Positions 11,963 to 15,316 of a DNA stretch of 64,000 bases are shown piece after piece. The notes below the pieces were generated by a model. That model worked only from the letters and a program-made list of their open reading frames with translations. It did not search any database and was not told the origin of the DNA. The stretch lies in the UHGV virus genome UHGV-1682877. The stretch is one strand, 5' to 3'. Origin of the DNA: a virus. Positions within the stretch are counted from its first letter, which is position 1; each line of letters begins with the position of its first letter. A program made the position numbers and the translations under genes.

Positions 11963-13232
11963 ATATTCTCAAAATTATTCTTTTCCTCTTGATTGTGAAG
12001 AAATAATTACTTCTTGGGAAATTAATAAAGCTAAATTGAACAAAGAATATTTGAACGAAAAAATTACTTTACAATTAACTGATGAACCAGTATCTATTAC
12101 TCTTGATGAAACTTTTAGAAGAGATAGTTTTTTTGAATTTATTGATAAAGTTATGAATTTGTTGGAACCATCTGAAGATGCTCCAGATAGTGAAATAGAA
12201 CTATATTACCATTTTTATGATTTTCTTAGTGATAATGTAAATAATTTTTATTCTAATATTGTTACTTCAGATTTTTTAAATATTGTAAAACGTGGAAGTA
12301 AAATTATTAAATCTTTTAAATATTTTGTTAAAGATAAACAAAAGCTCAGAAAAATCCAGGATATGGCAAGTGAATTAATTCAAACACAAAAAATTTCTGG
12401 ATATTTATTTGCTTCTATTGATCCATTTGAATTTTTAACTTCTAGTGAGAATAATTGCAATTGGCGTTCTTGTCATTCATTAGATGGAGATTATCGTGCG
12501 GGAAATATTAGCTATATGAATGATCAATCTACTATTATTGTATTTTTAGCAAATGAAGAAAAAATCAATGTAGACTGTTTACCAAAATCTATCAAAGTCT
12601 ATAATAAAAAATGGAGAATGTTAATTCATATAAATCAAAATGATAATATAATTTATTATGGAAGGCAATATCCTTCTTATAATAAAAATTTATTAGATTT
12701 AGTTTATAGTAAATTATTTTGTGATAAAGGTTTTATGCCTCCTAAAAAGGTTACTTTTGACCAAATTAATTTAAATCAGGATAATTGTATTGATTTAGAC
12801 CACAATTATATGGCATTAAATAACAAAGTTTTTGATACTTTAGAGTTAATTGATATTCCAGAAAATTCGTTAAATTATAATGATATTGTATATTCTTCAT
12901 TCTACCAAACGCAAGTCAGTATTAATAGAGAATATAAATATTATTATAGTAAAGATAAGCAAAAGACAATAGATTTATTTTTAACTAAAGTTGGTTATCC
13001 TGTTGCTTGCGCTTGCGGATGTGGCAGAAAAGTAAGTAATTCGGCAAGCTTTATTTGTGATACTTGTGCAGAAAAATATAATGCTGAAGGAAATTTATAT
13101 CCAATTTGCTCTTGTTGTGGACAAAGAATAAATTTAAAAGATAAACAGAGTTATAAACAAGAAGAAGAAGGTCTTTATTGTAGTCTTTGTTGGCGAGGAA
13201 TTAAGTCACTTGAACGTCAATTGAATTTTTAA
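11928..13232 (+). CDS. hypothetical protein with C-terminal CxxC clusters (paralog of 8148..9821)
   Basis: 434-aa ORF; TTG start in track; conserved NW(E/R)SC block and KKWR block shared with 8148 ORF. Confidence 0.6.
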   Translation: MNLQKSLEAAIKYSQNYSFPLDCEEIITSWEINKAKLNKEYLNEKITLQLTDEPVSITLDETFRRDSFFEFIDKVMNLLEPSEDAPDSEIELYYHFYDFLSDNVNNFYSNIVTSDFLNIVKRGSKIIKSFKYFVKDKQKLRKIQDMASELIQTQKISGYLFASIDPFEFLTSSENNCNWRSCHSLDGDYRAGNISYMNDQSTIIVFLANEEKINVDCLPKSIKVYNKKWRMLIHINQNDNIIYYGRQYPSYNKNLLDLVYSKLFCDKGFMPPKKVTFDQINLNQDNCIDLDHNYMALNNKVFDTLELIDIPENSLNYNDIVYSSFYQTQVSINREYKYYYSKDKQKTIDLFLTKVGYPVACACGCGRKVSNSASFICDTCAEKYNAEGNLYPICSCCGQRINLKDKQSYKQEEEGLYCSLCWRGIKSLERQLNF

Positions 13233-13262
13233 TAAAAATATATTATAATATATTTAGAAAAT
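13221..13262 (+). promoter_or_regulatory. sigma70-like promoter (-35 TTGAAT, -10 TATAAT 13244-13249) with leader
   Basis: 17-bp spacing. Confidence 0.6.
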
Positions 13263-13279
13263 TAAGAAAGGAATAAAAT

Positions 13280-13738
13280 ATGACTGTAAAAGAGCATGAA
13301 GTAAAAGTTTTTAAATGGCATTATACTTTGGTTAAAAGTTCAGCCATTTTTTATTTAAAAGATTTTATTAATCAAAATGTTTCAGATATTGATTATTATA
13401 TTGCTGATAATAATGAAAGTAATAAAATTATTTTGAATATTAACGGAGTAGAGTATCGTCTTTTAATTAATGATTATCTTCTTTATGACCCTTATTATAA
13501 TACTTTTGTCATATTAGAAAAATCTCCAGAATCTCTTTTTAAAGAATATGAAAAAGATTATGTTATTAAATTTTTAGATAATTATATTGGTAAAAATTTT
13601 CATGATATAAATACTATTTTTAGTTGTGCAAAACATTTTTCTTCTAAAGAAGAAGCTGAAAAAGTAGTAGATTTTTTAGTTGATAATTTTAATAGTAGCA
13701 GAGCTTGTTTTGAAATTATTGACTTAAATGAGGAATAA
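13280..13738 (+). CDS. hypothetical protein (intact paralog of 13741..14036)
   Basis: 152-aa ORF; SD AAGAAAGGA. Confidence 0.6.
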   Translation: MTVKEHEVKVFKWHYTLVKSSAIFYLKDFINQNVSDIDYYIADNNESNKIILNINGVEYRLLINDYLLYDPYYNTFVILEKSPESLFKEYEKDYVIKFLDNYIGKNFHDINTIFSCAKHFSSKEEAEKVVDFLVDNFNSSRACFEIIDLNEE

Positions 13739-13740
13739 TT

Positions 13741-14036
13741 ATGGATAATATTATTGAACGAAAAGTTAAAATATTTTGTTGGCATTTTATTATTGATAAA
13801 AAAATGGCTATTTCTTGTTTAGAAGATTTTTGAATAATATTAATGATATTTCTTTTTATATTTTTACAAGCACTCATAATGATGTTATTCATTTTAAAAT
13901 TAATGAAAAAGAATATGTTCTTTTAATGGGAGATTATTTGGTTTATGATTCTTATTATGAGAATTTTGCTATATTTCATAAACTTCCAAAATATATTCGT
14001 AAAATACAACAAATTGAAAATTTAAAAAATAAATGA
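13741..14036 (+). pseudogene. frameshifted paralog of 13280..13738 (ATG 13741 reads 30 codons to TGA 13831-13833; homology continues in -1 frame as ORF 13815..14036)
   Basis: Both reading frames align with consecutive segments of the upstream paralog; shift lies on a T5 run. Confidence 0.5.
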
Positions 14037-14055
14037 TATAATATATATACAAAGT
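14014..14055 (+). promoter_or_regulatory. sigma70-like promoter (-35 TTGAAA 14014-14019, extended -10 TGATATAAT) with leader
   Basis: 17-bp spacing. Confidence 0.6.
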
Positions 14056-14078
14056 TAAGAAAGGAATAAAAAAAAATA

Positions 14079-14724: not shown

Positions 14725-14955
14725 TTAATAATTTAAATGTAATAAAAGTTTGATGTATACAAATGTTGCGTCATTTGAATCCCTCCCTTTGCTACAATCA
14801 ACGTTTGATTTACATTTGGAAAAAGTGATAGAAAATCACATGGAATTACTTTTAGCCAACCGAGTATCAATGTTATTAACTAAAACTTTTTCACTTTTAT
14901 ATTAACTTTTAAATTATATCTTTTAGTTTGCGGTCTAAATTGTAAAACCGCATAT

Positions 14956-15033
14956 GGCACTGTAGCCCAATCGGAAGCAGGCAGTAGACTTAAAATCTAT
15001 TCAGTGTGGGTTCGAGTCCCATCAGTGCTACCA
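14956..15033 (+). tRNA. atypical tRNA: anticodon TAA (Leu-type) but short variable loop; CCA encoded
   Basis: Acceptor ggcactg/cagtgct, anticodon stem gtaga/tctat with loop cTTAAAa, T-arm gtgggttcgagtcccat identical to Leu(TAA) at 25100; identity uncertain. Confidence 0.55.
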
Positions 15034-15179
15034 TCACAGATTGTTGTGCGATTTAACTGTGTTAAATAAATTAAAATCGCGTTGCACAGTTCTTCCTTTA
15101 AGGAGTAGTTATGTTATATAATGAATGAACTAAAAAATTAATACTATGTTAGAATTGTATTAATTATTAAAAATTTTGG

Positions 15180-15234: not shown

Positions 15235-15316
15235 GTTGGATTGATGGAATGGTAGACATAGTAGCCTTAGAAGCTACCGCGTAAGCGTAAGAGTTCAAGT
15301 CTCTTATCCAACACCA
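15235..15316 (+). tRNA. tRNA-Leu (anticodon TAG), type II with long variable arm; CCA encoded
   Basis: Acceptor gttggat/atccaac, D-loop gaatggtaga, anticodon loop cTTAGAa, variable arm cgcgtaagcgt, T-arm aagagttcaagtctctt. Confidence 0.8.

What the first reader, a model, noticed from the sequence alone, without database searches (positions are those of the whole stretch)
13741..14036. Frameshifted duplicate of the 13280 gene with the shift on a U5 run
ATG 13741 opens a frame encoding residues that align with the N-terminus of the upstream paralog, then hits TGA at 13831-13833. Homology continues in the -1 frame (track ORF 13815..14036). The junction gat-ttt-tga places a UUU codon on a five-T run just before the stop, a context where -1 slippage can occur, so this is either a fresh pseudogene or a programmed frameshift.
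Basis: seen in the sequence. Interest (0 to 1): 0.5.

Follow-up and report, generated by a model that had tools for sequence, protein, structure and literature searches.

The report
One-base deletion breaks a phage gene
A small phage gene of unknown function is split in two here because this strain has five T's where every related phage has six. This is an ordinary strain-specific frameshift mutation, or less likely a sequencing error, and not a programmed frameshift.

Summary
ATG 13741 opens a frame that stops at TGA 13831-13833, and the T run 13827-13831 is exactly five bases. The -1 frame runs on to 14036. Reading T 13830 twice gives a 98-aa product that matches the upstream gene 13280-13738 (44% identity over 84 aa, E 5e-24).

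The programmed-frameshift reading is not supported. All five related contigs whose DNA I read have T6 at this site and encode one uninterrupted ORF. They range from 98.6% nucleotide identity to 57% protein identity. In the protein collection, 24 other distinct sequences cross the junction in one frame, and 20 of them are full-length 98-aa proteins on 56 contigs. Only the window's own strain (3 contigs) carries the 30-aa + 68-aa split. There is no X_XXY_YYZ heptamer and no downstream structure (z = 0.27).

The copy shows no further decay and the rest of the window is not indel-ridden. The best reading is therefore a recent T6-to-T5 deletion that truncates one of two old tandem paralogs. A read-level artefact cannot be excluded without the reads. 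The protein's function is unknown (lineage-restricted family, no informative sequence or fold match).

Seen in passing: a conserved tRNA with an 8-nt anticodon loop at 16876-16948.

The parts
13280..13738 (+). Intact upstream paralog (152 aa). It shares an N-terminal domain of about 90 aa with the broken gene and has a C-terminal extension of about 60 aa.
   Evidence: ORF list. blastp to the fused product gives 44% identity and E 5e-24. The exact protein occurs on 6 contigs. A diverged orthologue, P0048, is 45% identical.
13741..13833 (+). N-terminal fragment of the broken 98-aa gene: 30 codons plus a premature TGA. It starts 2 nt after the stop of the upstream paralog.
   Evidence: The exact 30-aa peptide (P0026) was called only on contigs of this strain. 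In the model of the intact orthologue it covers only strand 1 and most of helix 1.
13827..13831 (+). T5 run, the site of the lesion. It is T6 in every relative examined, so one T is missing here.
   Evidence: DNA alignments A1 and A6 and the pairwise comparisons.
13830..14036 (+). C-terminal 68 codons of the gene in the -1 frame, ending at the gene's normal TGA stop. TTG 13830-13832 overlaps the premature TGA as TTGA.
   Evidence: Gene callers list it as the 68-aa P0005 on 3 contigs. It holds the whole five-stranded sheet and the last helix of the model. There is no excess of nonsynonymous change after the junction.
13221..13278 (+). Promoter-like site (TTGAAT-17-TATAAT) and 17-nt leader TTAAGAAAGGAATAAAA ahead of the two-paralog unit. 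The same cassette recurs at 14014-14071 ahead of the next gene.
   Evidence: Consensus scan. The exact 17-mer repeat gave 3 matches in the window against 0.34 expected. That the cassette acts as a promoter is inferred.

Best explanation
The gene at 13741-14036 is the second of two old tandem paralogs of a small alpha/beta protein of unknown function. The family is restricted to this group of gut phages (related contigs of about 134-139 kb, AT-rich).

The ancestral and almost universal state is one 98-codon ORF with the sequence GAT TTT TTR AAT, a T6 run. In the strain sampled here one T has been lost, giving T5. Ribosomes therefore stop at UGA after 30 codons and the remaining 68 codons are out of frame.

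This is a non-programmed, recent loss-of-function (or strongly hypomorphic) allele. It is the commonest kind of indel, polymerase slippage in a homopolymer. It is probably tolerated because the gene is accessory, or because the upstream paralog covers for it.

Shown: the T5/T6 difference, the intact ORF in relatives, the lack of frameshift signals, and the lack of further decay. Inferred: that the T5 call reflects the real phage DNA and not a read error, that the 30-aa product is inactive, and that the upstream paralog compensates.
For: 1. T6 and a single ORF in 5 of 5 related contigs read as DNA:
   - L002 (97% identity), L003 (94%), L005 (98.6%; its upstream paralog is 100% identical to the window's)
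   - L008 (57% protein identity) and L010
2. In the protein collection, 20 distinct full-length 98-aa sequences occur on 56 contigs. Four more partial sequences also cross the junction in frame. The split pair P0026 + P0005 is confined to the window's strain, on 3 contigs.
3. Over 5.9 kb against L002 this is the only coding indel whose length is not a multiple of 3. The others are an in-frame 6-nt indel or lie between genes.
4. The gene is maintained in relatives. dN/dS is 0.09-0.40 among close strains, and the ORF is kept in L008. The window copy has no second lesion: after the junction, window against L003 shows 4 synonymous and 1 nonsynonymous change.
5. Programmed-frameshift signals are missing. 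The 89 nt downstream fold no better than shuffles (-8.7 kcal/mol, z = 0.27), and there is no X_XXY_YYZ heptamer.
6. The assembly is not indel-prone.
   - 472 homopolymer runs of 5 or more lie inside long open frames that stay open.
   - The 1279-aa DnaE, 791-aa GyrA and 762-aa NrdD are each a single open frame; GyrA and NrdD match their main Pfam model almost end to end, and DnaE matches four of the DNA pol III alpha domains.
7. The ENA scaffold is 100% identical to the window over 20 kb including the T5. The window extends 129 nt past that scaffold's end, so at least two contigs agree.
8. In the AlphaFold model of the intact orthologue (pLDDT 84.6), the junction falls at the end of helix 1. 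The 30-aa product therefore lacks the entire beta-sheet.
Against: - No reads were available, so a consensus error at the run cannot be excluded.
- The contigs that agree on T5 may all derive from one sample's reads. The tool hid the sample names of two of the three.
- A second T-run contraction specific to this strain lies nearby in intergenic DNA: 15174, T4 against T5 in both L002 and L005. It could be natural variation or a hint of systematic under-calling.
- The downstream 68 codons are perfectly preserved. This is expected for a very recent lesion, but also if they are still translated.
- dN/dS against the distant L008 is about 1, so constraint on this protein is not strong.
Confidence: 0.78

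Rival explanations
1. Sequencing or assembly artefact: the phage really has T6 and the consensus dropped one T.
For: - Homopolymers are the classic site of consensus indel errors.
- The T5 state is confined to one strain and possibly one sample.
- A second one-T shortfall specific to this strain lies 1.3 kb away at 15174.
Against: - An ENA scaffold and at least one other contig agree on T5. The window runs past the scaffold's end, and three contigs carry the 68-aa ORF.
- 472 other runs of 5 or more inside long ORFs are intact, and the very long genes are unbroken.
- From general knowledge, short-read platforms rarely miscall 5-6-nt runs at consensus depth.
Confidence: 0.13
2. Utilised or compensatory -1 ribosomal frameshifting ('shifty stop'). 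With UUU in the P site and the slowly decoded UGA in the A site, tRNA-Phe slips back one base on U_UUU_UGA. The ribosome then reads UUG AAU ... and makes some full-length 98-aa protein from the T5 allele.
For: - P-site re-pairing UUU to UUU is perfect, and the next zero-frame codon is a stop.
- Stops next to slippery runs stimulate shifting. Low-level compensatory shifting on a homopolymer indel is documented for herpesvirus thymidine kinase (Atkins et al. 2016, PMC5009743).
- The -1 product has exactly the ancestral sequence.
Against: - The break is not conserved: T6 in 5 of 5 relatives and single-frame proteins in 24 other sequences.
- There is no tandem-slippery heptamer, no downstream structure and no SD-like element seen upstream.
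- Any shifting would therefore be basal and incidental, not programmed.
- The phage's odd Phe-like tRNA with an 8-nt anticodon loop would favour +1, not -1. Quadruplet UUUU would lead to GAA UAA.
Confidence: 0.05
3. Split gene. The two pieces are made separately, with the ribosome terminating at UGA 13831-13833 and restarting at the overlapping UUG 13830-13832 (UUGA). The pieces then associate into a working protein.
For: Gene callers list a 30-aa and a 68-aa ORF overlapping by 4 nt, a geometry typical of translational coupling.
Against: - The overlap follows automatically from deleting one T in TTTTTTGA, so it is not evidence of selection.
- The cut falls at the end of helix 1 of a compact single domain.
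- No relative has this arrangement.
Confidence: 0.03
4. Phase-variable (contingency) tract: the T run switches the gene on and off at high frequency.
For: The lesion lies in a homopolymer.
Against: - The run is only 5-6 nt, whereas such tracts are usually 7 or longer (general knowledge).
- All other strains have T6.
Confidence: 0.01

Closest known systems
Strain-specific frameshift allele or fresh pseudogene caused by a one-base indel in a homopolymer
   Same: There is a single lesion in a mononucleotide run, orthologues are intact in all relatives, no secondary decay is seen, and a paralog sits next door that could cover the loss.
   Different: Nothing substantive differs. Read-level confirmation is the only thing missing.
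Bacterial and phage programmed -1 frameshifting (E. coli dnaX A_AAA_AAG; tail assembly chaperone G/GT G_GGA_AAG)
   Same: A shift to the -1 frame on a run of identical bases would join the two reading frames.
   Different: In those systems the frame break is conserved across relatives, the site is a tandem-slippery heptamer, there are flanking stimulators, and both products are used. Here the break is unique to one strain, only one tRNA could slip, and no stimulator is present.
'Savior indel' with low-level compensatory frameshifting (herpes simplex thymidine kinase G-run mutants), and 'shifty stop' slippage
   Same: An indel in a homopolymer sits next to a context where basal slippage could restore a little full-length protein. 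Here UUU is followed by a UGA stop.
   Different: In HSV the low-level product and its selective value are demonstrated. Here nothing is known about expression or about any advantage of losing the protein.

Membership tests
Programmed -1 ribosomal frameshift site | The frame break and shift site are conserved in related genomes. | tested here: not met
   T6 and a single ORF in L002, L003, L005, L008 and L010. 24 other distinct protein sequences cross the junction in frame.
Programmed -1 ribosomal frameshift site | A tandem-slippery heptamer X_XXY_YYZ that lets both the P- and A-site tRNAs re-pair. | tested here: not met
   The zero-frame sequence is GAU_UUU_UGA. GAU cannot re-pair on AGA and the A site holds a stop, so only a single-tRNA slip on U_UUU is possible.
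Programmed -1 ribosomal frameshift site | A downstream stimulatory hairpin or pseudoknot, and/or an upstream SD-like element. | tested here: not met
   13832-13920 folds at -8.7 kcal/mol against a shuffle mean of -9.4 (z = 0.27). The upstream sequence atttcttgtttagaaga has no GGAGG-like motif.
Programmed -1 ribosomal frameshift site | A trans-frame product is actually made. | not testable with these tools
   This needs mass spectrometry, ribosome profiling or a reporter assay.
Fresh frameshift pseudogene or truncation allele | An intact, selectively maintained orthologue exists in close and distant relatives. | tested here: met
   98-aa ORFs on 56 contigs. dN/dS is 0.09-0.40 among close strains. 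There is a 90-aa orthologue at 57% identity.
Fresh frameshift pseudogene or truncation allele | A single disabling lesion with no further decay. | tested here: met
   Adding one T restores a 98-aa protein 92-97% identical to its relatives. No extra stops and no excess nonsynonymous change after the junction.
Fresh frameshift pseudogene or truncation allele | The lesion is present in the DNA molecule and not only in the consensus. | not testable with these tools
   No reads were available. Indirect support: an ENA scaffold and at least one other contig agree on T5, and the rest of the window is free of broken long ORFs.
Tandem paralog of gene 13280-13738 | Significant sequence similarity across both sides of the junction. 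| tested here: met
   blastp 44% identity over 84 aa, E 5e-24. tblastn places residues 1-30 in frame 1 and 30-98 in frame 3. The predicted secondary structure is the same over residues 1-80.
Phase-variable homopolymer tract | Run-length polymorphism within and between populations. | tested here: not met
   Between populations: T6 in all five other contigs read as DNA, and single-frame proteins in all other strains. Within-population variation was not testable.

The most novel reading that the evidence does not exclude
The T5 allele is not dead. With UUU in the P site and UGA in the A site, basal -1 'shifty-stop' slippage on U_UUU_UGA yields a low, possibly advantageous dose of the full-length 98-aa protein. 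That would be compensatory frameshifting on a homopolymer indel, as in herpesvirus thymidine kinase mutants. The evidence does not exclude this, but nothing positive supports it, and it would be incidental and not an evolved programme.
Probability: 0.06. Interest if true: 0.3.

Novelty: already known. Interest (0 to 1): 0.07.

Why it matters
It matters little beyond annotation. The two ORF fragments (30 aa and 68 aa) should be annotated as one disrupted gene and not as two hypothetical proteins, and the site should not be listed as a recoding event. It is a clean example of how comparing a handful of related metagenomic contigs separates a strain-specific indel from a programmed frameshift. 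It also shows that this lineage-restricted protein is dispensable, or needed only at a trace level, for at least one circulating phage strain.

Tried and rejected
- **Function of the protein family.**
  - Pfam and PHROGs gave nothing below E 0.1 for either paralog.
  - tblastn of the fused protein against 50,697 phage records gave no match.
  - A full HMMER profile search of 1.84 billion representatives found only 5 proteins, all from this lineage.
  - The afdb50 library was unavailable.
- **Lak megaphage link.** blastn hits to Lak-B1..B9 are one 46-bp stretch. The corresponding Lak-B1 ORF shares only a 26-aa local match, E 9e-4 for a single comparison. I do not count this as homology.
- **IMG/VR scans.** Exact-pattern scans for the junction found nothing. 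The one metagenome scan found one more T6 contig.
- **Stop-codon reassignment.** I considered UGA read as Trp and rejected it. The zero frame after the TGA gives a low-complexity peptide with no similarity to the paralog, whereas the -1 frame gives the homologous sequence. The gene's own stop is also TGA.
- **The 8-nt-loop tRNA.** I considered whether the Phe-like tRNA at 16876-16948 could rescue the site and rejected it. It would promote +1 decoding, and UUUU followed by GAA UAA ends at once.
- **Targets for that tRNA.** A scan of the window for +1 split genes at TTCA found none on the coding strand.
- **Transcriptional slippage.** Rejected on run length: a 5-nt run is too short, because known cases need about 7-9 nt or more (general knowledge).

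Full report
**1. The observation**

The stretch reads ...TGT TTA GAA GAT TTT TGA ATA... in the frame opened by ATG 13741.
- The premature stop is TGA 13831-13833.
- The T run is 13827-13831, exactly five bases, flanked by A and G.
- The ORF list gives a 30-aa ORF at 13741..13833 and a 73-codon open frame at 13815..14036, offset by -1.
- Reading T 13830 twice (equivalent to inserting one T) gives a 98-aa protein. It aligns to the 152-aa product of 13280..13738 at 44% identity over 84 residues, E 5e-24, with no gap at the junction itself.
- tblastn places residues 1-30 in frame 1 and 30-98 in frame 3 and finds no third copy in the window.
- With p(stop) = 0.087 per codon in this 30% GC sequence, 69 open codons after the junction has a chance of about 0.002.

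One correction: only T6 (or T3) restores the frame. T4 gives GAT TTT GAA TAA.

**2. Relatives**

A protein search with the fused sequence returned two clusters of uninterrupted 98-aa proteins, at 95% and 92% identity. I read the encoding DNA, or the corresponding locus, on five independent contigs:

| Locus | Source | Relation to the window |
|---|---|---|
| L002 | ENA, COST17 sample | 97% nucleotide identity |
| L003 | Logan SRR29133548 | 94% nucleotide identity |
| L005 | Logan ERR11564684 | 98.6% nucleotide identity; upstream paralog 100% identical to the window's |
| L010 | ERZ1023658 | partial (gene cut by the contig end), same gene |
| L008 | ERZ27279231 | 57% protein identity to the intact orthologue P0001 |

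All five have six T's: GAT/AAT TTT TTR AAT.

The cluster listing shows 20 distinct full-length 98-aa sequences on 56 contigs. Four shorter ones also run through ...LEDFLNN... in one frame.

The only split versions are the exact 30-aa peptide (P0026) and the 68-aa peptide starting at TTG 13830 (P0005). Both are confined to contigs of the window's own strain, three contigs in all. The ENA scaffold among them is 100% identical to the window over 20 kb. From the coordinates, that scaffold ends at window position 130. The window therefore comes from another, longer contig, and at least two contigs carry T5.

**3. Programmed or not**

A programmed site should be conserved. This one is unique to one strain.
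- The zero-frame context GAU_UUU_UGA allows only a single-tRNA slip, because GAU cannot re-pair on AGA.
- The 89 nt downstream fold no better than shuffled sequence (-8.7 against -9.4 kcal/mol, z = 0.27).
- I see nothing SD-like upstream.

UUU followed by a stop is a 'shifty stop' context. Low-level compensatory shifting on homopolymer indels is known for herpesvirus thymidine kinase (Atkins et al. 2016, PMC5009743). A trace of full-length protein therefore cannot be excluded, but it would be incidental.

**4. Real mutation or artefact**

Against L002 (5.9 kb) there are seven indels. This is the only one in coding sequence whose length is not a multiple of three.

The window has 633 homopolymer runs of 5 or more, and 472 of them lie inside long open frames that remain open. 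The long replication genes are each a single open frame; GyrA and NrdD match their main Pfam model almost end to end, and DnaE (1279 aa) matches four domains of DNA pol III alpha. The assembly is therefore not indel-prone.

A caveat is a second one-T shortfall specific to this strain, in intergenic DNA at 15174. Without reads I put a real allele at about 0.78 and an artefact at about 0.13.

**5. State of the gene**

Among close strains dN/dS is 0.09-0.40, and the ORF is kept in the distant L008. The gene is therefore functional in relatives, although dN/dS against L008 is about 1, so constraint is not strong.

The window copy carries no second lesion and no excess of nonsynonymous changes after the junction. 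Window against L003 shows 4 synonymous and 1 nonsynonymous change. The lesion is recent.

**6. What the protein is**

Both paralogs occur in tandem in all related contigs, including L008 (154 aa + 90 aa), so the duplication is old.

The family has five representatives among 1.84 billion proteins, all from this phage lineage. It has no Pfam or PHROG match.

AlphaFold2 on the intact orthologue gives a confident model (pLDDT 84.6): strand, helix (residues 20-32), five strands, helix. The first 80 residues of the 152-aa paralog show the same pattern. The junction, at residues 30/31, lies at the end of helix 1. The 30-aa product therefore lacks the whole sheet and is very unlikely to be active on its own.

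**7. Context**

The window is the replication and nucleotide-metabolism module of an AT-rich phage from human gut metagenomes. It holds gyrase B and A, DnaB, RecJ, DnaE, NrdD and PhoH, with every ORF of 350 aa or more on the + strand, and 17 tRNA genes.

Related contigs cluster at 134-139 kb, which suggests a genome of about that size. Similarity to the published Lak megaphages is limited to one 46-bp stretch.

The two paralogs follow a promoter-like site and a 17-nt leader. The same cassette is repeated exactly ahead of the next gene.

**8. Verdict**

This is an ordinary single-base homopolymer deletion that truncates one copy of a paralog pair in one strain. It is not a recoding site. Interest is low.

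**9. Side observation**

The tRNA at 16876-16948 has an 8-nt anticodon loop, CUUGAAAA, on a 5-bp stem, and it scores 53 bits on the Rfam tRNA model.
- The expanded loop is kept in three other contigs.
- In L002 two anticodon-stem pairs have changed on both sides (U-A to C-G and C-G to U-A), which preserves the stem.
- In L008 the loop is CUCAAAAA.
- Taking the 3' three bases of the four-base anticodon that ARAGORN reports, the anticodons are GAA and AAA, both Phe. Read as quadruplets they would pair with UUCA and UUUG.

Phage tRNAs with enlarged loops have been noted before without a known frameshifting role (Atkins et al. 2016).

This tRNA cannot repair the T5 site, which needs a -1 shift. 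I also found no +1 split gene at TTCA in the window.

Noticed in passing
window 16876-16948 (+); also L002 5726-5798, L008 6379-6453, L011 1481-1556 (-): A tRNA with an 8-nt anticodon loop. ARAGORN calls it 'tRNA-???' with anticodon tgaa, and it scores 53 bits on Rfam tRNA. The arm is UUACC-CUUGAAAA-GGUAA. All four contigs keep the expanded loop. L002 has two anticodon-stem pairs changed on both sides (UCACU/AGUGA), and L008 has the loop CUCAAAAA. The 3' three bases of the four-base anticodon give GAA or AAA (both Phe); read as quadruplets they would pair with UUCA or UUUG. It is the only Phe-like tRNA in the window and could be a natural +1 (quadruplet) decoder. A scan of the window found no +1 split gene at TTCA.
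   Followed up: partly
window 16210-16842 (+): A 210-aa GIY-YIG (homing-endonuclease-like) gene sits inside the tRNA cluster, between tRNA-Met and the odd tRNA. L002 and L005 have it too. In L008 and L011 those two tRNAs are only about 25-28 nt apart, so the gene looks like a mobile insertion.
   Followed up: partly
window 13221-13278 and 14014-14071 (+): A repeated promoter-like and leader cassette: TTGAAT/TTGAAA, 17 nt, TATAAT, then the exact 17-mer TTAAGAAAGGAATAAAA just before the start codons of 13280 and 14079. The 17-mer has 3 matches in the window (2 mismatches allowed) against 0.34 expected.
   Followed up: partly
window 15174 (intergenic, between tRNA-Leu 14956-15033 and tRNA-Leu 15235-15316): A second T-run contraction specific to this strain: A5T4 here against A5T5 in both L002 and L005. 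It bears on whether the strain's T-run calls are natural variation or systematic under-calling.
   Followed up: no
window 13550 (inside gene 13280-13738): An in-frame 6-nt indel relative to L002 (152 aa against 154 aa) lies in a Lys/Glu-rich linker. That linker is the low-confidence part of the structure model, residues 84-118.
   Followed up: no
window 13280-13738 against 13741-14036, compared with L005: Mosaic divergence. The upstream paralog has no differences from L005 over 459 nt. The adjacent 297-nt gene has 9 substitutions, and the 14765-14841 spacer is very divergent. This suggests recombination between strains at a fine scale.
   Followed up: no
window 6593-6856 (+): Weak tblastn similarity of the 152-aa paralog (25% identity over 106 aa, E 0.003) to one ORF in an array of small 70-95-aa genes at about 5.9-8.1 kb. 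This may be a more distant member of the same family.
   Followed up: no
whole window; related contigs: The nearest named relatives by blastn are Prevotella Lak megaphages, but only over 46 bp. Related contigs cluster at 134-139 kb, which suggests a phage of about 137 kb and not a 540-kb megaphage. The window has 17 tRNA genes in two clusters, including tRNA-Ile(UAU).
   Followed up: partly
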